Assembly: GCA_965248925.1 (NCBI GenBank)
Contig: CBDFLE010000006.1
Span: 963,700 to 1,027,699 of the forward strand
Reading direction: 5' to 3'
DNA from: Candidatus Multivoradales bacterium
Lineage (GTDB): Bacteria; Acidobacteriota; Thermoanaerobaculia; Multivoradales; J023
DNA: 64,000 nucleotides
This document shows positions 2,438-13,614 of the stretch, piece after piece (the first letter of the stretch is position 1; each line of letters begins with the position of its first letter). A program made the position numbers and the translations under genes. The notes under the pieces are model-generated. The model saw only the letters and a program-made list of their open reading frames with translations, was not told where the DNA came from and did no database searches.

Positions 2438-2638
2438 CGCACACCTCCTCGCTAGTGGCGAGCCGGCCACCTAAGGACCTGCCGACTCGCCCAGAACGCA
2501 ATACCAAACAGGCACGCAACAGCGCGCACCAGTCGGCCCACCCACACCGGACTCGCTCGGGAATATGGAATCCCTGCATTTTTGGAGTGGATGAGCCGGC
2601 TGCTAAGCGCCGGTGTGGTTTGGTGGTGGTGGAGCTGC

Positions 2639-2929
2639 TCATCGAGCACCTCCTCCGGTCCAGGCTGCTTTTGCAAGTGCAGGATTCGCGAAACGCCCAC
2701 GCTGGCGCAGTGCCCATGAGCGAAATTCGTCGCCAGTCAAGCCCTCGGCAATGGCGCGACCGCTGTCACCAACGATGAGAGGGTGGAAATCTGGCAGCTG
2801 GTCGGCATAGCGGCGTGCAGTGGTGCGGCTCTTGATGCCGAGCATCGCCATTACCTGCTGTTTAGTGACGACATGCTGGGAACAAGCCATCTCGGCAAGG
2901 CAAAGCCGTAGTGCGACCAGCTCGGCCAT
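2639..2929 (-). CDS. Putative AlpA/excisionase-like HTH DNA-binding protein.
   Basis: HTH-like segment VTKQQVMAMLGIKSRTTARRYADQLPDFHP. Lies in the element regulatory region. Confidence 0.35.
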   Translation of the reverse strand: MAELVALRLCLAEMACSQHVVTKQQVMAMLGIKSRTTARRYADQLPDFHPLIVGDSGRAIAEGLTGDEFRSWALRQRGRFANPALAKAAWTGGGAR

Positions 2930-2970
2930 TATTCTCTGGTGCCTCGCAAGCTCGCTGTCACATGTCCGCT

Positions 2971-3543
2971 TCACGAGCCAAGCTCCACCGCTTGAACGCC
3001 AATCTGGATTTCAGGTTCCAGGTGGAAACTTGATTTGGAAGAACACCGAAAATCGCTACACAGACCAGGAACTTCAATTGGGGCTACCGGGCGCCCCAGA
3101 AAGGCTGACCACGACCCAGGCCAGTTGCAGGCCGGGAAAGCAGGAGCCCGGCCAGGAACAAGCGTCAAAACAGAGCCACCAACCTCGGGCGTTACGTACT
3201 TGACCTCCCCGGCAACCCTGGCGACGATGACATCGTGGCGACGTAGAGCCTCTTCGGCCGCTTCGCTCCAGCTCTGGAAACAAGTTGCTGACCAAAGCTG
3301 CCGAGGAACACCGAGGACTAGCTCAAAGAGCAGGGCCTCTCGGAGATAGACATGCTCAACTACGCCTCTTTCAAGCTTGGACAGGCGCATGGGCGAAATA
3401 TCAAGTTCAATCCCAAGACTGGAAAGAGTATGGCGAGCTGTCTTCCTGGCTCGCCTAAGCCTCTTGCCCGGTGTCTTACATGACTCTTTCTGTTTCTTAT
3501 CCATCTCTTTCGAAATCGTATACGACTCTGTATGAATCGTCAA
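2971..3543 (-). CDS. XRE-family transcriptional regulator (cI-like repressor candidate).
   Basis: HTH_XRE signature GKRLRRARKTARHTLSSLGIELDISPMRLSKLERG. Divergent from a second XRE gene. Start is TTG at 3543 or ATG at 3504. Confidence 0.6.
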   Translation of the reverse strand: MTIHTESYTISKEMDKKQKESCKTPGKRLRRARKTARHTLSSLGIELDISPMRLSKLERGVVEHVYLREALLFELVLGVPRQLWSATCFQSWSEAAEEALRRHDVIVARVAGEVKYVTPEVGGSVLTLVPGRAPAFPACNWPGSWSAFLGRPVAPIEVPGLCSDFRCSSKSSFHLEPEIQIGVQAVELGS

Positions 3544-3593
3544 TGGTAATTCTGATTGACAGCTTCTATTGTTTTGTTTAAAGTTTTATACGA
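3544..3593. promoter_or_regulatory. AT-rich divergent promoter/operator region between the two XRE regulators.
   Basis: Locally low GC (caatggtaattctgattgacagcttctattgttttgtttaaagttttatacgaatg) between back-to-back HTH genes, resembling a lambda-like genetic switch. Confidence 0.5.
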
Positions 3594-3950
3594 ATGAATA
3601 ACTCGCTAATAAATGCAGCGATGGCGCTGCTCTTGAGACAATCTGGGTTCTCAAGAGCCGTGGCATCCCGGAAGATGGGGTGTACCAGCGCGTCGATGTC
3701 GAACTGGCTGAATGGCCGGACTACGCCAAGCGCGTCAAGCCTCTTTGAATTTCTGCGCGTGCTGGGCTACGATTTTCGTCATCTCCAGAGCGCGCTGGAG
3801 AGTCTCGAAAAGGAGGATGGGGCGGAACCTGTAACTGGCCTTGCCTTGGATCTGATGTCCGGGATTAGCCGCGGTGAGCTACTGAGAGTCCTCAGGGAGG
3901 AGGCTCGGAAGATGCTCACCGAAGCGGCCACTGCAACGGGAGAGGAATAG
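3594..3950 (+). CDS. XRE/Cro-like HTH transcriptional regulator.
   Basis: HTH segment SRAVASRKMGCTSASMSNWLNGRTTPSASSLFEFLRVLG. Confidence 0.55.
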   Translation: MNNSLINAAMALLLRQSGFSRAVASRKMGCTSASMSNWLNGRTTPSASSLFEFLRVLGYDFRHLQSALESLEKEDGAEPVTGLALDLMSGISRGELLRVLREEARKMLTEAATATGEE

Positions 3951-3954
3951 CATC

Positions 3955-4683
3955 ATGGGCCAGAAGTCCCAACACTCAAAGATCTTGGCGCTTGGAAAAG
4001 CGCGCTCAGAGGGTCTCTTTGAAAGTCTCTTTGAAAGTCTCTTGGATATTTGCCGAACGGCTCGCAAGTCTGGGGACGATCAGTCAGCGCTAGAAGCATT
4101 GTCGGTTGCGGCAAATTCTCCCGACAGGCTCCCGAGCACGGATTGCAGGCTCTTGCGCCAACTGGGATCGATGCGCCGAGAGCAATGTAAGCTCGACTCT
4201 GCCTGCGATGCCTTTGGACTAGCCTCCTGCATCGCAGCGGTCGCAGGAGACAGGGTTCAATGGGCTAGGGCTGAGACAGAATTTGGGCTCTGCTTGGTCG
4301 AAGCAGGGAAGAACGACCAAGCAAGGGACGTTCTGAGAACAGCCTTGGCCGGGTTGGGACGGATGGTGTCTCAACGTCGCCACCGTGCTTCTGCGCATCT
4401 GGGACTAGCAACCGTGGATGTCGAGTCGGGTCTATACGGCGCCGCAGAATCCCACTACCGGCGAGCCGAATCGTTAGCTGAGTCCCAGGAAGACAGAGCA
4501 AAAATCCTGGCCAGCCTTGGTCGCGTGCAGATCATTCGTGGTCGCCTTGACGATGGCATTGCATCGCTACGAGACGCCCTAACGATCACGCCGAAGCTCC
4601 AAGACCGAATTGCCATCGAGATTTTGATCGAGCAGTTCGCCTCCGAAACGGCAGCCGAAGGCGAACTCAGTGCCGGCGCTTAG
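3955..4683 (+). CDS. TPR-like hypothetical protein.
   Basis: 242-aa ORF with TPR-like helical repeats. ATG 5 nt after the upstream stop. Confidence 0.4.
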   Translation: MGQKSQHSKILALGKARSEGLFESLFESLLDICRTARKSGDDQSALEALSVAANSPDRLPSTDCRLLRQLGSMRREQCKLDSACDAFGLASCIAAVAGDRVQWARAETEFGLCLVEAGKNDQARDVLRTALAGLGRMVSQRRHRASAHLGLATVDVESGLYGAAESHYRRAESLAESQEDRAKILASLGRVQIIRGRLDDGIASLRDALTITPKLQDRIAIEILIEQFASETAAEGELSAGA

Positions 4684-5021
4684 CCGCTCGGATCGATCAA
4701 GAATGGATTCTTCATCTGCTATTCCTCCTGATTGTTCCGGGTGGCCGCCATTGACCACTCATCGCCGTCTAACAGGCGAGTGTCTGATTTTGGATGCGTT
4801 TCGCGATGAGATCGCGAGGATATTCCCTAAATGACTGAAACTAGTGACCCCTTCTTCTGCGCTAAGCGAGTGCCCTACCCGCCTGGGCAAAATTCCGACA
4901 AGCCCCGGTCTCTTCGGTGGGGTCCATACATTGAGCCAGTGGGCCGCCGTCGAGTACTGCATCGGGGTCCTCGGGTCCAGCCTGTCGGTGTTGTCGGGGC
5001 GTAGGATCTGTTGGTAGTACA

Positions 5022-6197
5022 GTGAGGAAGCCTATCCTTGCCGAGCGGAATATCCGCCGACGCGGTAGCAGCTGGCAGCTCCGGATCTACTCGATGGGGC
5101 TTGGCCGTCAGGTCGTCGTCACCCACGGCAATCTGCCCCAGCTAGTAGCCAAGCGAGACGAGATCGAGGCCGACAACCTGTGCCGCAAAATCGGGGCATC
5201 TCCAGTACTGCGCTACCGGCCTGATCTTGGCAGCGTCCTGGAGCAGTTCCAACTCGAAATCGATCGCCGCGAGTGCTCTGGCGCGATCACTAGCGGCACT
5301 CTACGGACTTATGGCAACCACATCTCGGCATTCCAGCGATGGTCGGAAGAAACGGGGATGGATAGGTATGCCGCGGAAGACTTGCGGCGAACCCATGTGG
5401 AGCAATATTGCGCCTGGAGGGGGACCCACACGACGAGGGTTGGAACTAGCAAGGTGCGAGGCTCAAGCATGCGCACTGAACTCAGCACCCTCCGGCAGGC
5501 CCTCCGCCACGCCGAGATAACAGTCAACTGGCGCGCACCTCATTTCCTCAGCAAGGCGAGGGGTAAGAGGATCCTCTCGGCCGCAGAATTTTTCTCTTGG
5601 CTGGAGTGCATGCCCGTGGGCAGCCTGGAGCGCACCGCAGCAGAGCTAGCCTGGCGTACCGCGGCGCGTCCGAGCGACTGGATCAGGTTTCGGTGGAGCA
5701 ACGTCGACCGAGAAAGGGGGCTGCTGAAATTCGACGTCCAGAAACTCCGAGGCCAGCGCCATAGCGTCCCGCTGACTGACGAGATCCTCCATCATTTGAA
5801 CGCGTGGAGAACCAGCTCTGAGAGAGGCAACATCCTGCGAGGGCTGTGGTCACTGCATGCAGATCGACAGGCAATGCTTCGTGACACTATTTTCATCACA
5901 GGGACCACAGCGAGGCCCCGACGCCTGCGCACGAACTCACTCCGCAGGCGATGGGTCCAAGCTAGCAAGTCAGCGGGAATAGACCCGCCCATTAAAGCGG
6001 CCGGGGTTCTACGCAATCAGTTCATCGCCCTCGCCTTAGCGAGCGGCAGCAGCGCTTACGCTGTCGCTCGCCACGTTGGGCACAGCAGCCTCAATCTGTT
6101 GATCCGGTACGCAGAGCAGGATTTGCCAACCGAACTCATCCAAGAAATGACCGGAAAAATCGACGAGCGCCGACGCGTTATCGTCCAAGAGCGCTAG
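5022..6197 (+). CDS. Tyrosine site-specific recombinase (phage integrase family).
   Basis: C-terminal catalytic region with ...HSLRH.. and ARHVGHSSLNLLIRYAE, matching the R-H-R-Y integrase core. Confidence 0.8.
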   Translation: MRKPILAERNIRRRGSSWQLRIYSMGLGRQVVVTHGNLPQLVAKRDEIEADNLCRKIGASPVLRYRPDLGSVLEQFQLEIDRRECSGAITSGTLRTYGNHISAFQRWSEETGMDRYAAEDLRRTHVEQYCAWRGTHTTRVGTSKVRGSSMRTELSTLRQALRHAEITVNWRAPHFLSKARGKRILSAAEFFSWLECMPVGSLERTAAELAWRTAARPSDWIRFRWSNVDRERGLLKFDVQKLRGQRHSVPLTDEILHHLNAWRTSSERGNILRGLWSLHADRQAMLRDTIFITGTTARPRRLRTNSLRRRWVQASKSAGIDPPIKAAGVLRNQFIALALASGSSAYAVARHVGHSSLNLLIRYAEQDLPTELIQEMTGKIDERRRVIVQER

Positions 6198-6461
6198 AGA
6201 ATCTCGGCCAATCCTGTCCAACGAGGTGGCCGAATTTGGCCGAAATTTGGCAGGGCAGCATATATCCTGACTTTGTGAGAATCATCCAACTGCCTCAAAA
6301 CAATAAACTTACAGTGATTTTGTAGACAAGCAAATTCGCTGTGACTAAATAGCGTAGATTTCGTCCCATACCCACAGAGACGCGAAAGGTTCTTCGCTTC
6401 TTGCCTCTGACCTCGAGCGTGACTATCAACGGCTCTACACCCTGACGGCGGGAGCACGCTT

Positions 6462-7274
6462 TCAGTCCTGAGAAGCGATCTTGGCCAGTACATCAGGCCA
6501 AATCTCGCTCCAGCAACAACTGTGATCGAAGCCGGGATAGATCACCAGCTCGGCAGCTGAGAGCTCGGCCAGACGGCGGGACGCATCGGGCGGGATTCGC
6601 TCGTCGTCCTCACCCAACAGGTGCAACTGGCGGATGCTCGCCGGCAAGGGCGGACGGCGAGACGGGTCGAGGGAACCGAGCAGCGGGGTGTAGTGGTGCA
6701 GGTCGGCCCAGGCGACCAGGTCGAGATTGGCGGCGAGGGTGACCACGGCTCGCACCTTGGGCAACCGCTCGGCTAGCAACATGGCCAGCACACCACCGCC
6801 GCTGTAACCCACCAGCACGATCTGCTCGACCGGAGGCTCGGCTAGCAAACTGAGCAGGGCCTGTTCCATTGCTGCCACCACCCGCGGCGAGTAGCGCGCC
6901 AGGGTCCACAGTAAAGGGTCGCAATCGTCGGTCTGGCGCCAGCGGTTGTAGCACGGCCGGCCCAAGTAGAGACTGGGGGCGGGATCGAGTTGCATCAGCT
7001 CGAAGGCCAGGGCGCGGCGCGGGTGCGGATCGGCGGCGACCAGCTGTTCGCCAATCCAGGGTCGGCCATCGCCTTCGAGATAGACGTGTAGCCGTCGATC
7101 GGTGCTGCTCCCGCCTTTACGGTAGGCCACGTGGTGGAAGTCGCCGCCCACCAACACCAGGCGCTGATAGCCGGCGGCGGCGGCGCGAGCCTCGAGGTGG
7201 GCGGCAGGGGTAGGCGTCGTGACACAGCCAACGACGGCCAACGAACAAAGCAGGGTGGCGGCGCGCCGGTTCAT
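6462..7274 (-). CDS. Secreted alpha/beta-hydrolase lipoprotein.
   Basis: Signal peptide with lipobox (LAVVGC) and nucleophile elbow GYSGGG. Confidence 0.6.
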   Translation of the reverse strand: MNRRAATLLCSLAVVGCVTTPTPAAHLEARAAAAGYQRLVLVGGDFHHVAYRKGGSSTDRRLHVYLEGDGRPWIGEQLVAADPHPRRALAFELMQLDPAPSLYLGRPCYNRWRQTDDCDPLLWTLARYSPRVVAAMEQALLSLLAEPPVEQIVLVGYSGGGVLAMLLAERLPKVRAVVTLAANLDLVAWADLHHYTPLLGSLDPSRRPPLPASIRQLHLLGEDDERIPPDASRRLAELSAAELVIYPGFDHSCCWSEIWPDVLAKIASQD

Positions 7275-9253
7275 CGAGCACTCGGCACGAAAAACAGCTC
7301 GCCACCTTCGTCGTCAGTCAGCCTGATCGGAGCCAGGAGCGGTCGCTGGTCGAGTTCGAATCGGCGGGCAGCATCCACCACCGGCTGCTCGATCTGGCGA
7401 AATAGGGCCGACACCGGCAAGATCCGCTGATTGCCGCGAAGCGCGTCAAGCAAGGCGCGGGAGAAGACCGAGTTGCGCCCATCACCCCCAGCATCGAGCA
7501 CCGGACTGAGGCCACCCGAGGTGAGTGCCAGACGGGACCGGCGCTCGACCAACTGACGCACGCGGTCGGCATCGACCGGTGGATCGGCACTAGCGAGCGG
7601 CTCTGCCTCGTCACCCAAGGCACCGGAGTAGCATGAATCGGCCACCACCAGGACGTGGCGGGCAGCGATGTCGCCAATCAGAGTCGTGACATCGAATTTG
7701 ACGCTTACCCAATTCGACGTGTCCTCGGGCTCGGCGTCGATCGGCAGCCAGTAGCCCGACCCTTTCTGCAATAGCGAGCCGTGACCTGCGTAGAAGAGCA
7801 GCAGATTGTCGTTCGGCCCGACCTCGCCAATGATCTCGGTGAGGGCGGTGACGATCTCGTAACGTGTGGCGTTACGCAGGGTGCGCACATTGTAGCCGTA
7901 GCGGGTCTCCAGCACCTCGGCCAGCTCGCTGGCGTCGTTGACCGCGGTTTCCAGTCGCGGCAGCTTCTGGTATTCATCGTTGCCGATCAGCAGGGCGTAG
8001 GAAGCGCCGAAGTTGATCCCGGCATAGAGACTTGGGTCGTCCAGCTCATGTGCGCCTGCTGCTGATGACGCGGCTACCGCTGGGACGGTCTCTAGCGACC
8101 GACCGCCGCCACCGAGCCAGCCCATCTGCCAAGCAACCAGGGCCAACAGCAGCAAGACACCAAGTCCCACCAATGGCGCGGTGCGGCGAGGGCGGGACGG
8201 CATGCTAGCCGGCGGCTGAGCCTCGGCAGCCAGCAGCGCTCCACCACCCTCGGCGAGGGTCGGTGCCGAGGGGTTCCAGTCGCTGGGCGTGGTGCCGGCG
8301 GCGGTTGGCGCGGGCCGGGTCCGCAGGGGCCTAATGGGCTGCACCGCGGGCGGCAGCCCGGTGAAATCGTCGGCCCCGCTGTCTCCACTGCCTGAGAGGG
8401 AGCCGACCAAGGCTTCCGAAAATTCCCCGGCACTCGACCAGCGATCATCGGGACGCTTCTCAAGCGCCTTCATCACCACCCGCCGCAGCGATTCGGGAAC
8501 CGCCTCGCCGAGCGTGGTCTCGTCAAAAGCCTTGGGCGGATGGAACAGGTGCCCGGCGATGATCGACACCTCGTCATCACCCTGGATCGGATACTCGCGG
8601 GTGAGCAGCTCGTAGAGCACGATGCCGAAGGAGTAGAGGTCACTCCGCGCGTCAACCGTCACCTCCCCCTTGCTGCTTTCCAGATGTTCCGGCGAAACGT
8701 AGCGCGCTTTGCCCACCACCAAGCCGGTCTGGGTCTGAAACTGCGCTCCTTCGAGGGACTTGGCCAGACCGAGGTCGATCAGCTTGACCCGCGGGCTGCC
8801 ATCGGCGACCCAACTGAGCATCAGATTGTCGGAGGCGATATCGCGGTGGAGGATTTTCTGCTCGTGCAGGAAGGCCAGCGCGGCAAGCCCCTGGCGACCG
8901 ATCTCCACCACCTGCTCCAGCGCCAGCTGCTTGTCGGTGGCCAGCAGCTGGGCGACGTTCATGCCCTCGACCAGCTCCATCACCATGTAGGCGGTGCCGT
9001 CTTCGGCAACACTGAAGTCATAGAGCTGGGCGATCCCCGGATGGCGCAGCCGGGTCGCCACCTGCGCCTCGCGCAAGAAACGGGCCTGCAGATCAGGATC
9101 CTCGCGAAATTGGGCGCGGATCATCTTGATCACCCGCAGCTCGTCGAGGAAGACATGGCGCACCTTATAGACCGCGCCCATGCCGCCCTCGCCCATCTTG
9201 GCGACGACTTCGTACTTCTGCTCGATTTCCGGACTCAGGTGCAGCTCGCTCAT
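7271..9253 (-). CDS. Ser/Thr protein kinase (Hanks-type) - TM segment - C-terminal caspase (peptidase C14) fusion protein.
   Basis: Kinase motifs GEGGMGAVYKV, VIKMIR, HRDIASDN, DLGLAK, YVSPEH. Hydrophobic TM segment (LVGLGVLLLLALVAW). Caspase His/Cys dyad in LLLFYAGHGS and VVADSCYSG. Confidence 0.8.
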   Translation of the reverse strand: MSELHLSPEIEQKYEVVAKMGEGGMGAVYKVRHVFLDELRVIKMIRAQFREDPDLQARFLREAQVATRLRHPGIAQLYDFSVAEDGTAYMVMELVEGMNVAQLLATDKQLALEQVVEIGRQGLAALAFLHEQKILHRDIASDNLMLSWVADGSPRVKLIDLGLAKSLEGAQFQTQTGLVVGKARYVSPEHLESSKGEVTVDARSDLYSFGIVLYELLTREYPIQGDDEVSIIAGHLFHPPKAFDETTLGEAVPESLRRVVMKALEKRPDDRWSSAGEFSEALVGSLSGSGDSGADDFTGLPPAVQPIRPLRTRPAPTAAGTTPSDWNPSAPTLAEGGGALLAAEAQPPASMPSRPRRTAPLVGLGVLLLLALVAWQMGWLGGGGRSLETVPAVAASSAAGAHELDDPSLYAGINFGASYALLIGNDEYQKLPRLETAVNDASELAEVLETRYGYNVRTLRNATRYEIVTALTEIIGEVGPNDNLLLFYAGHGSLLQKGSGYWLPIDAEPEDTSNWVSVKFDVTTLIGDIAARHVLVVADSCYSGALGDEAEPLASADPPVDADRVRQLVERRSRLALTSGGLSPVLDAGGDGRNSVFSRALLDALRGNQRILPVSALFRQIEQPVVDAARRFELDQRPLLAPIRLTDDEGGELFFVPSAR

Positions 9254-9283
9254 GCTGGTGGCCTCTCGATCGGTGGTCGAACT
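9000..9283. repeat. Direct repeat copy 2 (5' end of the kinase gene plus ~30 nt of leader), ~88-90% identical to 10444..10727.
   Basis: Manual nucleotide comparison of the two regions. Confidence 0.75.
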
Positions 9284-9522
9284 TCCCTTGTGCTTGTCGC
9301 TGGCCTCATGAGCCCAGAGCGTATTGTGCCCCGGTAGACCAAGCGTTTCGAGTCTTCTTGGCAGGCCATCGGCAAGGAATCAGGAGACCTGGTCGCGGGG
9401 GCAATCCGCAGAATCGTCGAGAGAACCCCCCTTGACTCCGCGGAACCGACGACTAATACTCCTCATGGAGGCTCGGCTCAGGGGCTGCTCTCGGGTGGCT
9501 CTGAAGGCATTGCCTCCTTTTT

Positions 9523-10413
9523 TCATTCCCCACCTCGTCTGGCCTCGTACGGGTCCGGTACAAAAACGATGCCGTAGGACTCGAAAACGACCCCGTCCCG
9601 GGCTCCCTTCCCTCGGAATTGAAGCTGAGTGAGCCATTGACCATAGTCGTCGGCGATCTCCTTTCGAGTCGGCGCATCCATCCCTCGAGGCGGCAGCCGA
9701 AAACCCCAATTCACACAGTAGATCGCCAGGTCTGCGGCCTGGACCGGGTAGGTCATGTCAGAGGAGACGAAAAACGGCGCCGGGACGATCCACGCCGACC
9801 GATAGCGGCCCGTCTTCGTTCTCCGGAAGTATCCCTGGAGGCGGCGGACGAAGCGGCGGTCCTCAGCCTTTTCCACTTCGTCCATCACCAGCAGACCGTG
9901 CTGTTTTTCCTGCTCCAGGAGATAGAAGTAGCGCTCGAGAAGGAAGACCTGATCCTTGCGAAGGTACTCCTCCGCCTTGAATGTGTCTGGCTTGATGACG
10001 CTGCGCGGGATCGCGGCGGCAAATAATTGAGCTTTGTGTTGTCTGAGCAGCTCAAAGATCCCCGTCGCCATCTCCAGGGACGCCTGTCCGTAAGCCGTGA
10101 ACTCCACCCGCAGCGGCGGCTTCTTCTCCAGCCCCTTGGTGAGAAATCCCCGGCAATGCTTGCGGCGCTCCTCGTCAGGCATCCTCGACCCCTGGGCCGC
10201 CCACTTGTAGCGATCCTTGTCCAAGAGCTTGCAGCCCTTGAGTTCCGTCCGGAACTGATGCAGCGTGGTCCCGAAGGAGTCCAGCTCCAGACGCTGCATG
10301 TCCTGTACAAATGACCACAGCTCCGAAGCATGCAACGCCACACCGCCCCTAACCTCGTAGGGCATGGTCCGGTGGTCGTGACCGCTCTCATCCAGGAAAA
10401 GCAAATAGCTCAT
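9523..10413 (-). CDS. DUF3800 domain protein.
   Basis: N-terminal MSYLLFLDESGHD and C-proximal QAADL motifs typical of DUF3800. Its start overlaps the stop of the upstream kinase-fragment ORF (ATGA). Confidence 0.65.
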   Translation of the reverse strand: MSYLLFLDESGHDHRTMPYEVRGGVALHASELWSFVQDMQRLELDSFGTTLHQFRTELKGCKLLDKDRYKWAAQGSRMPDEERRKHCRGFLTKGLEKKPPLRVEFTAYGQASLEMATGIFELLRQHKAQLFAAAIPRSVIKPDTFKAEEYLRKDQVFLLERYFYLLEQEKQHGLLVMDEVEKAEDRRFVRRLQGYFRRTKTGRYRSAWIVPAPFFVSSDMTYPVQAADLAIYCVNWGFRLPPRGMDAPTRKEIADDYGQWLTQLQFRGKGARDGVVFESYGIVFVPDPYEARRGGE

Positions 10414-10697
10414 CCGGCGATCTCCAAGGGCTCCTCGATCTCATCCTCGGCGACGCTGAAATCATAGAGCTGGGCGATCCCCGGATAGCGTAGCCGGGTC
10501 GCCACCTGCGCCTTGCGCAAGAAACGGGCCTGCAGATCAGGATCCTCGCGAAACTGGGAGCGGATCATCTTGAGCACCCGCAGTTCATCGAGAAAGACAT
10601 GGCGAACCTTATACACCGCCCCCATACCGCCCTCGCCCATCTTGGCGACGACCTCGTACTTGTGCTCGATTTCCGGGCTCAGGTGAAGCTCAGTCAA
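10410..10697 (-). pseudogene. Truncated duplicate of the Ser/Thr kinase N-terminus (95-aa ORF: Gly-loop + VAIK Lys + aC only). Acts as a leader ORF for DUF3800.
   Basis: Protein MTELHLSPEIEHKYEVVAKMGEGGMGAVYKVRHVFLDELRVLKMIR... is ~90% identical to aa 1-85 of the full kinase. TTG start. It ends 9 aa after the homology stops. Confidence 0.6.
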
Positions 10698-10727
10698 GGT
10701 GCCAAGCCCCTCGATCGGCGGTCGATA
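10444..10727. repeat. Direct repeat copy 1 (diverged duplicate of the kinase 5' end plus leader).
   Basis: Manual alignment to 9000..9283. Confidence 0.75.
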
Positions 10728-11169
10728 CCGCCACCCGTTTCGCTCTCAGCGGTTGCACCTAATTCGGGATTCACTTGCATCCGCTTGCCGAAAGAGGATC
10801 AAGCCTCTGCAACATCAGGACGTTGTTGTGGGGAGGACGCTGCAATCGGCCGCGACTCTCAGCCAACTCTTGCTGGTCGCCATTCGGCACTGATCTCACA
10901 GACTCCATCTTCGCCGGGCGCCGCATGGAGATCCGCCGAGTCACGACGGAACATCTCTGCAGATCACTGACGGTCTGGCGGGATGGGACTCGGTCTGGCG
11001 CACAGCATAGATCTTCTCACGACCGAAGATCGCCTGCACGAGGAACCGATAGAGCGACAGTGATCGCCTCAAGACGGTGGCCGAGAGCGGCGCAGAGCAC
11101 CCGCACAAGGCAACAAAAAGCCGGCTGCACACCTGGTTGCAACCGGCTTTCGAGGCTCCAGCGAACTTC

Positions 11170-13614
11170 CTAGAACCTGAAGTTGCCCCGCAGGTACCAG
11201 GAGCCACCCTCGTAGTTGGCGGCACTGCGCCGGGGATATTGCAGGCCAACGCTCTGACGGTTGGCAAAGGGGGCATTGATCTCCTCGACGAATTCGTCGA
11301 AGACATTGATCGCCCCGACGGCAATGCCGACGTGCTGATTGACCTGGAAGCCAAGCTCAAGATCGATGTAAACGGTTGCCCCGATTTCTGCGGACGGCGA
11401 GCTGGATGCGCCGATGCGGCCGCGTTCGTCGAAGTGCTTGCCGTAGTAGTTGGCCCGAGCCAGCAGATTCCAATCTTCACCCAAACTGGTATTGGCGGTC
11501 AGCACCAGGCGCTCGTTGGGGTAGTTGTTCTCGATGTCCTCGATGATCCCTTCGCTGACCGGATTGACTCCCGAGACCAGAGACTGATCGACCACGTCGA
11601 CCTCGTTGTAGCTAAACGCCAAGACCCAGCTGGTATCAATGGTCGGTGACCAGTCGAAACCAGACGTCAGAACAATATCGAGACCTTGCGACTCGACATC
11701 CAGAGCGTTGGTGTAGAACGAAATAGTCTGACCCTCGGTGTCAGGGACTGCAATGTCGCCAGTGCGGTAAATCCGGTCGTCGACCTCGATCTTGTAGGCG
11801 TCGACGGTCAGTGTCGTTCTGTCGCTGAAGCTATTCGAGAAGCCGAAGCTGAAGTTCAGTGACGTTTCCTCGGTTAGTGCCTTGCCGCCGACCGCCGCCA
11901 CCAACGGGCTGGTGGAAGGCACCAAACCTTCTTCGACCTGCAATCCGGTCACCCCGTCAAAGGTGGTGATGGTGGTGCGCACGTTAGCCTGGCCGGGGGT
12001 CGGTGCGTGGAAACCGGTCGACACCGCGCCGCGCAAGGTCAGCGAGGAATTGACCGAATAGCGCGAAGCGATCTTCCAATTCACCGTGCTGCCAAAGTCG
12101 GAGAAGTCCTCGAATCGCAGAGCGTACTGCATCAAGAAGTCGTCGCTGATGTCGTGCTCCACATCGACATAGAGTGCGATGTTGTCGCGATCAAAGGTGC
12201 CGGCATCGTCAAGACTGATGCCTTTTAGGCCATTGGATCCGGCGCCTAGAAACGAGTTGGGCTCGCCGGCTATCGCAATGTAGGTCTCTTCCCGCCATTC
12301 GGCGCCAAAGGCCAAGTTTATCTTGTCGCTGAGCGGCTTGGAGAAGTCGGCATTCAGATTCAGCTCCTCTTGCCGATAGCCACCAGCATCGAAGTCTCGC
12401 TGCGCCGGCTGGCCGTTGCTCAGACCCAGATCTGGATTGATTGTGTTGTTGAGGGTGTAGTCGAGTTCGTTCTCGCCGTAGCTAATACTGAAGTCGAAGG
12501 TGGTGTTTCCAGCGAACACGCCGGTGAGCCCGGTGACCAAGCTCAAGTCGGTCTGCTCACCATCGAGAAAGGGGGTGTAGCCCGCTTGCAAGCCGGTGAA
12601 CCCTTGCTCGCGCAACGGCACCAAGCTCGAATGCTGGGGATTGCGATAGAAGAACCGGTAGCGGCCGTCGGTTTTGGCGTAGTTGCTCTGGAAGTAGAGG
12701 AAGGTGCTCTCGGTCGGGTTGAAGCCGGAGTTGAGAAAGAAGCGAGTGCCCTGAGTTTCCGGCCGGCCCCAAGTTTGCACCAGGGGCGTATCACCGAAGG
12801 GTGCATCGGCACCGACGCCCTGGACCCCAGCATCGATTAGAGCCTGCGCGTCAGGGCGCTGTACGCCCCGCGACAGAGCATCGTTATCGACATGCTCGAT
12901 GCTGAGATTGACAAAACCGGTCTCACCGAGCGAGAAGCCGCCGTTGGCGGCAACCTTGAGCGAATTCTCACCCTCGTAGTGCTGACCAAACTGAACCTGG
13001 ACTTCAGAACCCTGGGAGGCATCCTTCATTTTGAAGTTGATCACTCCGGCGATGGCATCCGAGCCATATTGGGCGGCGGCACCATCGCGCAACACCTCTA
13101 CTCGCTCGACGGCGATACCAGGCAACATGCCAACATCGACGCCATGCGCGCCATTACCCGCCGCCGGGGCAAAGAATTGCACCAAGGCCGAGCGGTGGCG
13201 GCGCTTGCCGTTGACCAAAACCAAGGTTTGATCCGGCGCCGTGCCGCGCAGCGAGGTGGGGCGAACAAAAGCACTGCCATCACCGGTAGCAGGGGTCGCG
13301 GTGTAGGAAGGCACCAAGGCCTTAAGGTTGTCTGTGAGATCGGCCGTATTGCCCATGGCGTTGAATTCTTCTGCCGAGATGATGTCGACGGGCACCGGCG
13401 AATCGGCTACTGAGCGGGGCTTGGTGCTGCGCGAGCCGAGCACGACGATCTCATCTGAGAAGTCCTCCTGCTCCTCGGCAACAACTTCTTCCGCCGTGTC
13501 CTCGGCCGCTGAAGCGGCCGCATCTTCCTCTGGCTGGGCGATCAAGGCCTGGGCCATCAATACCGCACCGGCAGTGGTCGCCGCCGACAAAAACTTCCAG
13601 GTTCTTCTGTTCAT
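11170..13614 (-). CDS. TonB-dependent outer-membrane receptor.
   Basis: Signal peptide, plug-domain motifs (IERVEVLRDGAAAQYGSDAIAGVINFKMK) and C-terminal YLRGNFRF with terminal Phe. Confidence 0.85.
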   Translation of the reverse strand: MNRRTWKFLSAATTAGAVLMAQALIAQPEEDAAASAAEDTAEEVVAEEQEDFSDEIVVLGSRSTKPRSVADSPVPVDIISAEEFNAMGNTADLTDNLKALVPSYTATPATGDGSAFVRPTSLRGTAPDQTLVLVNGKRRHRSALVQFFAPAAGNGAHGVDVGMLPGIAVERVEVLRDGAAAQYGSDAIAGVINFKMKDASQGSEVQVQFGQHYEGENSLKVAANGGFSLGETGFVNLSIEHVDNDALSRGVQRPDAQALIDAGVQGVGADAPFGDTPLVQTWGRPETQGTRFFLNSGFNPTESTFLYFQSNYAKTDGRYRFFYRNPQHSSLVPLREQGFTGLQAGYTPFLDGEQTDLSLVTGLTGVFAGNTTFDFSISYGENELDYTLNNTINPDLGLSNGQPAQRDFDAGGYRQEELNLNADFSKPLSDKINLAFGAEWREETYIAIAGEPNSFLGAGSNGLKGISLDDAGTFDRDNIALYVDVEHDISDDFLMQYALRFEDFSDFGSTVNWKIASRYSVNSSLTLRGAVSTGFHAPTPGQANVRTTITTFDGVTGLQVEEGLVPSTSPLVAAVGGKALTEETSLNFSFGFSNSFSDRTTLTVDAYKIEVDDRIYRTGDIAVPDTEGQTISFYTNALDVESQGLDIVLTSGFDWSPTIDTSWVLAFSYNEVDVVDQSLVSGVNPVSEGIIEDIENNYPNERLVLTANTSLGEDWNLLARANYYGKHFDERGRIGASSSPSAEIGATVYIDLELGFQVNQHVGIAVGAINVFDEFVEEINAPFANRQSVGLQYPRRSAANYEGGSWYLRGNFRF

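What the first reader, a model, noticed from the sequence alone, without database searches (positions are those of the whole stretch)
7271..10727. Kinase-caspase fusion gene preceded by a DUF3800 gene that is bracketed by a diverged 285-bp duplicate of the kinase 5' end
The 660-aa protein joins a Hanks-type Ser/Thr kinase to a TM segment and a caspase (C14) domain with an intact His/Cys dyad. Its catalytic loop reads HRDIASDN, so the conserved catalytic Lys of HRDLKxxN is absent. This could be an atypical kinase or a pseudokinase sensor. Just upstream, a DUF3800 gene lies between two ~88-90% identical direct repeats (9000-9283 and 10444-10727). The upstream repeat encodes a 95-aa truncated copy of the kinase N-lobe (Gly-loop + VAIK Lys). 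That ORF's stop overlaps the DUF3800 start (ATGA), so the kinase stub serves as a translationally coupled leader. The geometry (homology - insert - homology + rest of gene) is what Campbell-type single-crossover insertion of a circular cassette carrying a kinase 5' homology arm would produce. The ~10% divergence means the incoming arm came from a paralog or another genome, or that the event is old. A kinase/caspase effector with a cassette-borne DUF3800 partner resembles signalling-protease modules in conflict systems. I do not recall this three-part arrangement being described.
Basis: partly seen in the sequence, partly recalled or inferred. Interest (0 to 1): 0.8.

Follow-up and report, generated by a model that had tools for sequence, protein, structure and literature searches.

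The report
Mobile DUF3800–small RNA cassette insertion
A small travelling cassette, made of an RNase H-like DUF3800 gene and an uncatalogued antisense small RNA, has landed in the front of an ordinary membrane kinase-caspase gene and duplicated that front end, so the kinase stub is an insertion scar and not part of a three-gene defence system.

Summary

The functional reading does not hold. None of 80 DUF3800 loci from many phyla has a kinase-caspase beside it, and three kinase-caspase homologue loci lack DUF3800. HRD[IV][SA]xDN without the Lys occurs in all 120 top homologues, so it is a family trait.

DUF3800's constant partner is a ~57-nt structured small RNA on the opposite strand (window 9467-9523, promoter 9432-9460). 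A covariance model built without the window finds it in 78 of 80 loci and in the window (E 6e-19). Rfam has no match.

The pair often sits between hsdS and hsdR of type I restriction operons. The window copy still carries an hsdS 3' remnant, which explains the ATGA.

Flanking duplications of host gene ends recur (11/63 loci against 9/236 controls), for example at fabI, trpD and a thioesterase gene. In the window the two copies differ mostly at synonymous sites (dS 0.40, dN/dS 0.08). That points to two functional alleles and therefore to homology-assisted insertion; Campbell-type integration is plausible but unproven.

The parts
10444..10727 (-). Upstream repeat copy (U): 28 nt of 5' leader plus codons 1-85 of a kinase-caspase allele
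   Evidence: about 88-90% identical to 9000-9283; the differences are mostly synonymous (dN/dS 0.08).
10410..10697 (-). Stub ORF (95 aa, TTG start). It holds the kinase Gly-loop and VAIK Lys, with the alphaC Glu changed to Lys, and ends in 11 codons read from the cassette leader.
   Evidence: The tail DEIEEPLEIAG* aligns with hsdS C-termini.
10414..10443 (-). Cassette 5' leader. It is a remnant of the 3' end of a type I restriction hsdS gene and contains the DUF3800 Shine-Dalgarno sequence (GGAG).
   Evidence: alignment with L011, L013, L027 and L022. The upstream genes there are hsdS (Pfam Methylase_S).
9523..10413 (-). DUF3800 gene (296 aa), an RNase H2-like fold. The N-terminal D8-E9 and Q225xxD228 motifs are invariant.
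9467..9523 (+). Small structured RNA gene convergent with DUF3800. It has three helices, then a U-run whose last base is the complement of the A of the DUF3800 TGA stop codon.
   Evidence: 96.8% of cells paired on this strand against 78.9% on the other, and 43 compensatory cells against 12.5 in shuffles. Model R1, built without the window, scores 80.6 bits, E 5.7e-19. No Rfam match.
9432..9460 (+). Sigma-70-type promoter of the small RNA (TTGACT, 17 nt, AATACT)
   Evidence: the only promoter-like site in 9200-10900. The -35 and -10 boxes are conserved across loci.
9284..9431 (.). 148-nt spacer of unknown origin between the cassette core and the intact kinase-caspase gene
   Evidence: no similarity to the rest of the window or to any locus, and no plausible ORF.
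9000..9283 (-). Downstream repeat copy (D): 28-nt leader plus codons 1-85 of the intact kinase-caspase gene
7271..9253 (-). Intact kinase-TM-caspase (C14) gene, 660 aa. It belongs to a large family found mainly in Acidobacteriota.
6462..7274 (-). Alpha/beta-hydrolase lipoprotein gene. Its ATG overlaps the kinase-caspase stop (ATGA), so it is the last gene of the read-through unit.
   Evidence: The signal and lipobox-like N-terminus reads MNRRAATLLCSLAVVGC. It is not conserved next to homologues.

Best explanation
SHOWN: what the cassette is
- Window 9429-10445 is one copy of a compact, horizontally spread two-gene cassette.
- One gene is promoterless and encodes a DUF3800 protein with an RNase H2-like fold.
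- The other is a convergent ~57-nt structured small RNA with its own promoter. Its terminator overlaps the DUF3800 stop codon.
- The home context of this cassette is between hsdS and hsdR in type I restriction-modification operons and in other defence neighbourhoods. The window copy still carries about 30 nt of an hsdS 3' end.

SHOWN FOR GEOMETRY, INFERRED FOR MECHANISM: how it arrived
- The cassette was inserted at codon 85/86 of a resident kinase-TM-caspase gene by an event that duplicated the gene's first 284 nt.
- The upstream copy is left as a stub. It supplies the native promoter region and read-through translation to DUF3800.
- The downstream copy keeps the kinase-caspase gene intact.
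- The two copies diverged under purifying selection. One of them therefore derives from a different functional allele.
- The insertion, or its later spread, thus used homologous recombination with DNA from a diverged relative. Campbell-type integration of a circle carrying the cassette plus a kinase 5' arm is the simplest version.

INFERRED: function
- DUF3800 and its RNA form a self-contained toxin/antitoxin-like or abortive-infection-type nuclease module. The RNA acts either as an antisense or protein-binding inhibitor, or as a cofactor.
- The kinase-caspase is an unrelated envelope signalling protein that happened to be the landing site.
For: Cassette and RNA:
- Nucleotide homology to 70+ loci spans only about 10445..9429.
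- The RNA motif is found once, on the opposite strand, directly after the stop codon in 78 of 80 loci and in 4 further loci.
- A reduced form occurs after 35-38%-identical plasmid genes.
- Covariation and G-U pairs fix both the structure and the strand.
- The promoter is supported.

Spread:
- The protein is up to 89% identical across Acidobacteriota, Planctomycetota, Actinomycetota, Binatia, Nitrospirota and Proteobacteria.
- The flanks are unrelated in most loci.
- Most homologues lie on 1-5 kb contigs.

Home context:
- The order hsdM-hsdS-cassette-hsdR is seen in L011, L013, L027 and L031.
- GmrSD/Schlafen neighbours and Cas and PycTM neighbours occur elsewhere.
- The hsdS remnant in the window is shown.

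Insertion scars recur:
- 11 of 63 loci have flanking direct repeats against 9 of 236 shifted controls (P 6e-4). For repeats of 100 nt or more the counts are 6 of 63 against 1 of 236.
- The duplicated pieces are ends of host genes, and an intact copy is always kept: FabI 5', TrpD 5', a 4HBT thioesterase 5' (175 nt, 100% identical) and a MacB/FtsX 3' end with in-frame indels.

Allelic origin in the window:
- Sd 18, Nd 6, dS 0.40, dN/dS 0.08.
- Differences by codon phase are 20/8/3.

No partnership with the kinase-caspase.

Fold and literature:
- The DE and QxxD motifs are invariant.
- This agrees with PMC7736814 and PMC10910872. DUF3800 genes were already known to associate with many different RNA motifs (PMC5737381).
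Against: - No empty site, donor allele or close relative of this genome was found. The next-best kinase-caspase is only 49% identical. The direction and mechanism of the event are therefore inferred.
- The cassette encodes no recognisable recombinase, and its ends are not fixed. The left boundary lies 0-38 nt before the ATG in loci where repeats abut it. How it first reaches a new site is unexplained.
- 52 of 63 loci show no flanking repeat.
- Expression of the RNA and any toxicity or defence activity are untested. PADLOC has no model matching this DUF3800.
- The 148-nt spacer is unexplained.
- The stub ORF is intact and could have a role of its own.
Confidence: 0.7

Rival explanations
1. The stub, DUF3800 and kinase-caspase form one functional three-part conflict system. 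The stub acts as a translationally coupled leader, and DUF3800 is a cassette-borne partner of a kinase/caspase effector.
For: - The genes share a strand, with an ATGA overlap between the stub and DUF3800.
- A kinase plus DUF3800 pairing exists in the Cas13-associated CASK operon (bioRxiv 10.64898/2026.08.25.746378).
- The kinase domain hits PD-T4-6 kinase models in PADLOC.
Against: - 0 of 80 DUF3800 loci have a kinase-caspase or a kinase stub next to the gene.
- 0 of 3 kinase-caspase homologue loci have DUF3800.
- The ATGA is inherited from hsdS-DUF3800 junctions.
- The PADLOC hits cover only the generic kinase domain.
- The CASK kinase is a TPR/PknG-like protein, and no Cas13 context exists here.
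- The caspase domain is predicted to be extracytoplasmic.
Confidence: 0.05
2. Tandem paralogues. The genome once carried two adjacent kinase-caspase genes, and the cassette replaced all but the first 85 codons of the upstream one. No foreign homology arm is then needed.
For: - dN/dS of 0.08 fits two long-functional copies.
- The genome has at least one other paralogue (P0008, same 5.2-Mb contig).
- Kinase families expand by duplication (general knowledge).
Against: - The same U-cassette-D geometry recurs at single-copy housekeeping genes (fabI, trpD, a thioesterase gene, a MacB/FtsX 3' end). One case has 100% identical copies. Tandem paralogues are implausible there.
- Homology stops 28 nt upstream of the start codon.
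- The known paralogue is only about 59% identical in the kinase domain.
Confidence: 0.12
3. De novo duplication at insertion. Template switching, or end joining at staggered breaks, produced two identical copies. Later, allelic replacement or gene conversion of one copy by a diverged relative produced the synonymous-biased differences.
For: - Repeat lengths vary widely (33-317 nt), and some pairs are identical or nearly so (L028 100%, L066 99%). This is expected from non-enzymatic duplicative insertion of different ages.
- Cassette boundaries vary.
Against: - It needs a second event, with a recombination endpoint falling inside or next to the 1.4-kb unit, at 10% divergence.
- L017 shows in-frame 12- and 6-nt indels between its copies, which again points to two functional alleles.
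- It cannot be told apart from Campbell-type entry with the present data.
Confidence: 0.2
4. Assembly artefact: a chimeric join or mis-resolved repeat created the stub.
For: None directly. Reads were not available.
Against: - The copies are 10% diverged and bracket 1160 nt of unique, well-conserved cassette sequence.
- The contig is 5.2 Mb.
- The same architecture is seen in independent assemblies at other genes.
Confidence: 0.02

Closest known systems
DUF3800-associated RNA motifs DUF3800-I to -XI (Weinberg et al. 2017, PMC5737381; Rfam RF02969, RF02968 and others)
   Same: A structured non-coding RNA is tightly linked to a DUF3800 gene. It can lie on either strand and often ends in a Rho-independent terminator. 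Its function is unknown.
   Different: None of the Rfam 15 families matches the window or nine related loci, even at permissive E-values. This motif has a fixed convergent position overlapping the stop codon and its own conserved promoter. It would be a further, uncatalogued class.
Restriction-linked accessory modules such as PrrC inside the prr type Ic operon (own knowledge)
   Same: A nuclease-type gene sits between hsdS and hsdR of a type I R-M operon. That is the position PrrC occupies.
   Different: The fold is different (RNase H2-like, not an ABC-ATPase/anticodon nuclease). An RNA partner is present. No evidence exists of regulation by the R-M enzyme. The window copy has left the R-M context.
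Type I toxin-antitoxin pairs with convergent, 3'-overlapping antisense RNAs (txpA/RatA, bsrG/SR4) and the nuclease-type SymE/SymR pair (own knowledge)
   Same: A protein gene and a small cis-encoded antisense RNA with its own promoter form a compact, widely transferred two-part unit. Distant homologues sit next to plasmid repC.
   Different: The protein is a 296-aa RNase H-like enzyme, not a small membrane peptide. No toxicity has been shown. The strongly conserved loops suggest protein binding, as in type III systems or guide RNAs, rather than simple antisense pairing.
Integrative elements that duplicate the end of their target gene, for example prophage e14 in icd or islands in tRNA genes (own knowledge)
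   Same: The insert is flanked by an intact gene end and a displaced, similar but not identical copy of it. The differences are biased to silent sites because both versions encoded functional protein.
   Different: No integrase lies within the 1.4-kb unit. The targets differ from genome to genome, and both repeat length and cassette ends vary. It is therefore not a site-specific att system.
CASK, the Cas13-associated Csx32 (DUF3800), Csx33 (kinase-TPR) and Csx34 operon (bioRxiv 10.64898/2026.08.25.746378), and TPR-DUF3800 proteins next to Cas12a2/a3 (PMC10910872, PMC13594972)
   Same: A DUF3800 protein lies near a Ser/Thr kinase gene, and the family is linked to defence.
   Different: There is no Cas13 or Cas12, no TPR domain and no Csx34. 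The kinase here is a TM-caspase fusion of another family, and the adjacency is unique to this genome.
Retron type VII DUF3800 effectors (Mestre et al. 2020, PMC7736814)
   Same: A DUF3800 protein with RNase H2-like structure and the N-terminal DE motif is partnered with a non-coding RNA gene.
   Different: No reverse transcriptase lies nearby. The RNA is 57 nt with no msr/msd features. The QxxD motif is intact here, whereas the paper reports that retron-linked proteins lack the Q.
Bacterial Hanks-type kinase fused to a C14 (metacaspase/orthocaspase-like) domain
   Same: The architecture is Pkinase, TM, then Peptidase_C14 with a His/Cys dyad. Thousands of homologues exist.
   Different: Nothing differs from its own family. 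The window protein is an ordinary member, and HRDIASDN is a minor variant of the family consensus HRDISPDN.

Membership tests
Hanks-type (eukaryote-like) Ser/Thr protein kinase | Pfam Pkinase match above the gathering score, with Gly-loop, VAIK Lys, alphaC Glu, HRD Asp, catalytic-loop Asn and DFG-type Asp | tested here: met
   151.8 bits against a cut-off of 31.7. GEGGMG 21, VIK 43, E62, HRD 136-138, N143, DLG 160.
Hanks-type (eukaryote-like) Ser/Thr protein kinase | Catalytic-loop Lys of HRDxKxxN | tested here: not met
   The window protein reads HRDIASDN. All 120 best homologues read HRD[IV][SA][PTS]DN. This is a conserved family trait and not decay. Catalytic competence cannot be tested here.
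Peptidase C14 (caspase/metacaspase) | Pfam Peptidase_C14 match and a His/Cys catalytic dyad | tested here: met
   81 bits against a cut-off of 21.4. AGHG 489 and DSCYSG 539 are conserved in 118-120 of 120 homologues.
DUF3800 (PF12686) | Pfam match, N-terminal DE motif, C-terminal QxxD motif and an RNase H-like fold | tested here: met
Rfam DUF3800-I to -XI RNA motifs | Match to a curated covariance model | tested here: not met
   There were no hits at E<=1 in window 8900-11200, nor at E<=0.1 in 8 related loci.
Structured small RNA gene (generic) | Conserved secondary structure with compensatory changes, a strand-specific G-U signal, a promoter and a terminator | tested here: met
   17 pairs, 8 with double changes, 96.8% of cells paired against 78.9% on the other strand. 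Promoter. A U-run follows helix 1. Transcription itself was not tested.
Type I/III toxin-antitoxin system | A toxic protein neutralised by a cis-encoded RNA | not testable with these tools
   Only the architecture was checked (convergent antisense RNA, compact mobile pair, location next to plasmid repC in distant homologues). PADLOC has no hit for this DUF3800; no toxin-antitoxin-specific library was available to search.
Insertion sequence / transposon | A transposase, fixed element ends (terminal repeats) and a target-site duplication of characteristic length | tested here: not met
Site-specific integrative element (att-based) | An integrase within the element and the same target in different hosts | tested here: not met
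   The only tyrosine recombinase (5022-6197) lies outside the repeat-bounded unit, beyond two other genes. The targets differ in every locus.
Integron gene cassette | An attC recombination site 3' of the ORF, an array context and IntI | tested here: not met
   The 3' element shows the G-U strand asymmetry typical of RNA and has its own promoter and terminator. No array and no IntI context were found in the loci.
CASK (Cas13-Csx32/33/34) | Cas13 plus a kinase-TPR (Csx33), DUF3800 (Csx32) and Csx34 in one operon | tested here: not met
   The Pfam content of the neighbourhood includes no Cas protein, and no TPR domain is fused to the kinase. The adjacency is not conserved.
Campbell-type (single-crossover) insertion | The insert is flanked by direct repeats of the homology arm, and the arms are of different allelic origin | tested here: inconclusive
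   The geometry fits and the divergence is synonymous-biased. No circular intermediate, donor or empty site is available, and the same end state can arise by other routes.

The most novel reading that the evidence does not exclude
The DUF3800 and antisense-RNA pair may be a distinct, recombinase-less mobile module.
- It would consist of an RNase H2-like nuclease controlled or guided by a new class of structured small RNA.
- It would escape from type I restriction operons and colonise the ends of expressed host genes.
- It would enter by homology-arm (Campbell-like) or template-switch insertion. This systematically duplicates the gene end, captures the host promoter for the promoterless nuclease gene and leaves the host gene intact.
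- The window would then be a clear example of a general route by which small defence or addiction cassettes move without a transposase.
Probability: 0.3. Interest if true: 0.75.

Novelty: new variant of a known kind. Interest (0 to 1): 0.55.

Why it matters
Ordinary parts:
- The kinase-caspase is a typical member of a big family.
- The stub is a scar.

Parts that could matter:
1. DUF3800 proteins now appear in retrons and next to Cas12a2, Cas12a3 and Cas13, and eleven unrelated RNA motifs were already tied to them without explanation. Here a further RNA class shows 78/78 co-occurrence in testable loci. It has a fixed convergent geometry, a defined promoter and terminator, and a recognisable minimal core in 35%-identical plasmid relatives. 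This gives a small, experimentally tractable pair for asking what DUF3800 does with its RNAs.
2. How small defence or toxin-antitoxin cassettes move without their own recombinase is poorly understood. The recurrent duplications of host gene ends, the hsdS remnant and the allelic divergence of the arms are concrete footprints of that movement.

Tried and rejected
- Exact look-ups of the window proteins and of paralogue P0008 found no contig on record. The source genome could not be read outside the window, and cluster look-ups gave no names.
- No close relative of the kinase-caspase exists in the protein collection; the next hit is 49% identical. Searches for an empty site or a donor allele were therefore not pursued.
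- Rfam gave no match in three searches. PADLOC gave none for DUF3800 or the hydrolase.
- The 148-nt spacer and the 440 nt upstream of the stub matched nothing by blastn or tblastx.
- A diversity-generating retroelement (template and variable repeat) was considered and rejected. The mismatches are of all kinds rather than adenine-specific, and no reverse transcriptase is present.
- An attC/integron cassette was rejected because of the G-U strand asymmetry, the promoter and the context.
- A transposase-made target-site duplication was rejected because the duplication lengths and cassette ends vary.
- A conserved 10-codon mini-ORF on the sense strand of the RNA region (AAGGAGG-N5-ATG) was rejected because the ATG is ACG in about a third of loci.
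- A literature search for the Pkinase + Peptidase_C14 architecture returned nothing relevant.

Full report
CHECK OF THE OBSERVATION

The - strand carries four genes in a row:
- a 95-codon ORF at 10410..10697, which starts with TTG;
- a 296-codon ORF at 9523..10413, whose ATG overlaps the stop of the first ORF (ATGA);
- after a 269-nt gap, a 660-codon ORF at 7271..9253;
- a 270-codon ORF at 6462..7274, which again overlaps by ATGA.

The direct repeat is real. Positions 9000-9257 match 10444-10701 at 90%. After a 1-nt indel, 9261-9280 match 10706-10725 at 90%. The repeat covers 28 nt upstream of the start codon plus codons 1-85.

Pfam confirms Pkinase (3e-44) and Peptidase_C14 (1.4e-22) in the long protein. 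It confirms DUF3800 (1e-12) in the middle protein and the kinase N-lobe in the stub.

The kinase-caspase shows HRDIASDN, DLG, the caspase His (AGHG) and Cys (DSCYSG), and one hydrophobic segment at residues 359-377 preceded by RPRR.

THE KINASE-CASPASE IS AN ORDINARY FAMILY MEMBER

- The protein search returned 4,863 hits at E<=1e-10, most of them from Acidobacteriota MAGs where a source is named. The best non-self hit is 49% identical.
- All 120 listed homologues lack the catalytic-loop Lys. They read HRDISPDN (70), HRDISTDN (35) or close variants. All have D[LM]G, and nearly all keep the caspase dyad.
- The missing Lys is therefore a conserved family feature with the other catalytic residues retained. 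It is not a sign of decay in this gene.
- The positive-inside rule puts the kinase in the cytoplasm and the caspase domain outside.
- In three homologue loci the gene stands alone. It lies next to a convergent pair of genes, a Sel1-C14 gene and a Calx-beta autotransporter gene. There is no DUF3800 and no hydrolase.

DUF3800 IS PART OF A MOBILE CASSETTE THAT IS UNRELATED TO KINASES

- A genome scan gave 80 loci encoding relatives that are 57-89% identical. They come from Acidobacteriota, Planctomycetota, Actinomycetota, Binatia, Nitrospirota, Fermentibacteria relatives, Proteobacteria and others.
- None has a kinase-caspase or a kinase fragment beside the gene.
- Nucleotide homology to the window is confined to about 10445..9429. 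That is roughly 30 nt of leader, the ORF and about 95 nt beyond the stop.
- The flanks are unrelated in most loci.
- The protein search found 1,930 relatives, most of them on 1-5 kb contigs.

A SMALL RNA GENE IS THE CONSTANT PARTNER

The 95 nt after the stop are strongly conserved. Read on the opposite strand, they contain three elements in order:
- a promoter, TTGACT-17-AATACT, at window 9432-9460; this is the only promoter-like site in 9200-10900;
- a ~57-nt RNA at 9467-9523 with three helices;
- a U-run that overlaps the DUF3800 stop codon.

RNAalifold and pair counting give 17 pairs, 8 of them with compensatory double changes. 96.8% of cells are paired, against about 50% when the partners are slid. 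There are 43 double-change cells against 12.5 in shuffles. 19% of cells are G-U, so pairing falls to 78.9% on the DUF3800 strand. This fixes the strand of the RNA.

A covariance model built without the window finds the motif in the window at 80.6 bits, E 6e-19. It finds the motif once in 78 of 80 loci. The two misses end at a contig edge. The motif is always antisense and lies directly after the stop, except where insertions intervene in L028 and L052. Four further loci also have it.

A reduced hairpin with the same GGAGGCU...GCAUUGCCU core follows plasmid DUF3800 genes that are only 35-38% identical.

Rfam 15, which holds the DUF3800-I and DUF3800-IX motifs among others (PMC11701678), matches none of these sequences.

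Weinberg et al. had reported eleven unrelated RNA motifs tied to DUF3800 genes, with no functional hypothesis (PMC5737381). This looks like a further class.

NATURE AND HOME OF THE CASSETTE

- The DE and QxxD motifs are invariant. This agrees with earlier fold assignments (PMC7736814, PMC10910872).
- In L011, L013, L027 and L031 the cassette lies between hsdS and hsdR of a type I restriction operon. In several of these the hsdS stop overlaps the DUF3800 start by ATGA.
- Elsewhere it follows a GmrSD-Schlafen gene, or lies between Cas and PycTM genes. On Phaeobacter plasmids a distant homologue sits directly after repC.
- The window's 30-nt leader, which encodes the stub's last residues EIEEPLEIAG*, aligns with the hsdS 3' ends encoding KIDVRQEAAG* and LDVRQEIAR*. 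The ATGA overlap is therefore an heirloom of the hsdS junction.

WHAT THE DUPLICATE MEANS

Direct repeats of host DNA flank the cassette in 11 of 63 testable loci, against 9 of 236 shifted control positions (Fisher P 6e-4). For repeats of 100 nt or more the counts are 6 of 63 against 1 of 236.

The duplicated pieces are ends of host genes, and one intact copy is always preserved:
- the 5' end of a 4HBT thioesterase gene (175 nt, 100% identical);
- the 5' end of trpD (60 nt);
- the 5' end of fabI (150 nt);
- the 3' end of a MacB/FtsX permease gene (317 nt, 90%, with in-frame indels);
- an intergenic stretch (278 nt).

The window's arrangement is therefore one instance of a recurrent insertion footprint and not a kinase-specific design.

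The cassette gene has no promoter of its own in the scanned region. It sits in the same orientation behind host 5' ends or behind upstream genes. Promoter capture by the stub is therefore the likely selective reason (inference).

The cassette boundaries are not fixed, and the duplication lengths range from 33 to 317 nt. This argues against a dedicated transposase or an att site.

In the window, the 85 shared codons differ at 18 synonymous and 6 non-synonymous sites (dS 0.40, dN/dS 0.08). If the stub had drifted neutrally from an identical copy, about 63% of the changes should be non-synonymous (P 2e-4). Both copies were therefore shaped as functional genes in separate lineages, and homologous recombination with a diverged relative must have been involved.

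Two alternatives remain possible:
- a de novo duplication followed by allelic replacement;
- replacement of an upstream tandem paralogue, which is less likely given the recurrence at single-copy genes.

No donor, empty site or circular form could be examined.

VERDICT

It is wrong on function, because there is no three-part kinase/caspase/DUF3800 system.

What is there is a mobile DUF3800 and antisense-RNA cassette, derived from a restriction operon and inserted duplicatively into the 5' end of an ordinary envelope kinase-caspase gene. The RNA motif and the recurrent host-gene-end duplications are the parts worth following up.

Noticed in passing
window 9432-9523 (+): An uncatalogued ~57-nt structured small RNA gene, with its own promoter and a terminator overlapping the DUF3800 stop codon. 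It is present in 78 of 80 related loci and has no Rfam match.
   Followed up: yes
L011, L013, L027, L031 (about 4400-12500 in each): The DUF3800-RNA cassette sits between hsdS and hsdR of type I restriction-modification operons. This is the position PrrC occupies in prr loci.
   Followed up: partly
L062 7805-7886 (+) and 8882-8963 (-): One locus has two copies of the RNA motif, one on each side of the DUF3800 gene and on opposite strands.
   Followed up: no
L028 8886-9154; L052 1757-3457: Insertions separate the DUF3800 stop codon from its RNA. In L028 the insertion is about 270 nt. In L052 it is about 1.7 kb and carries a 502-aa ORF with a weak UPF0236 (transposase-like) match. The RNA is retained intact in both.
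   Followed up: partly
L053 8000-10495 vs L060 7651-10170: Two related Planctomycetota genomes share the cassette and the downstream fabI region (87.5% identical) starting one base before the DUF3800 ATG. To the left they are unrelated: one has a squalene-hopene cyclase gene overlapping by ATGA, the other a duplicate of the fabI 5' end. Rearrangement at the cassette's left edge seems to recur.
   Followed up: partly
L081 7949-12612; L082 3533-8196; L083 7996-12935: Kinase-caspase homologues are followed by a conserved convergent pair of genes: a Sel1-repeat protein with a second C14 caspase domain, and a Calx-beta autotransporter. This may be the family's real functional neighbourhood, and it is absent from the window.
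   Followed up: no
window 2500-6500: A stretch of lower G+C (0.49-0.60 against about 0.65) holds a tyrosine recombinase gene (5022-6197, +), a TPR protein gene (3955-4683) and an unassigned ORF (2971-3543). It lies directly downstream of the hydrolase gene. It may be a small integrated island, and no tRNA gene is in the window.
   Followed up: partly
window 6462-7274 (-): An alpha/beta-hydrolase gene with a lipoprotein-type signal (LAVVGC) overlaps the kinase-caspase stop by ATGA. This pairing is not seen next to the three homologues examined.
   Followed up: partly
window 9490-9522 (- strand reading); same position in the loci: On the DUF3800 sense strand the RNA region reads AAGGAGG-N5-ATG followed by a 10-codon ORF (MPSEPPESSP*). 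The ATG is ACG in about a third of loci, so a conserved peptide is unlikely. The invariant CCUCC at the 3' end of the RNA resembles an anti-Shine-Dalgarno sequence.
   Followed up: partly
L088 1855-2779 (Phaeobacter plasmid pGal_E78) and similar plasmids: Distant DUF3800 homologues (35-38% identical) lie directly after repC on alphaproteobacterial repABC-type plasmids. A reduced version of the same antisense hairpin follows them. This is a typical location for plasmid stability modules.
   Followed up: partly
window about 11125-11165 (- strand): A hairpin plus T-run lies directly after the TonB-dependent receptor stop codon (AGCCGG...CCGGCTTTTT). The stub and DUF3800 unit is therefore probably transcribed from within the 440-nt region upstream of the stub and not from the receptor gene.
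   Followed up: no
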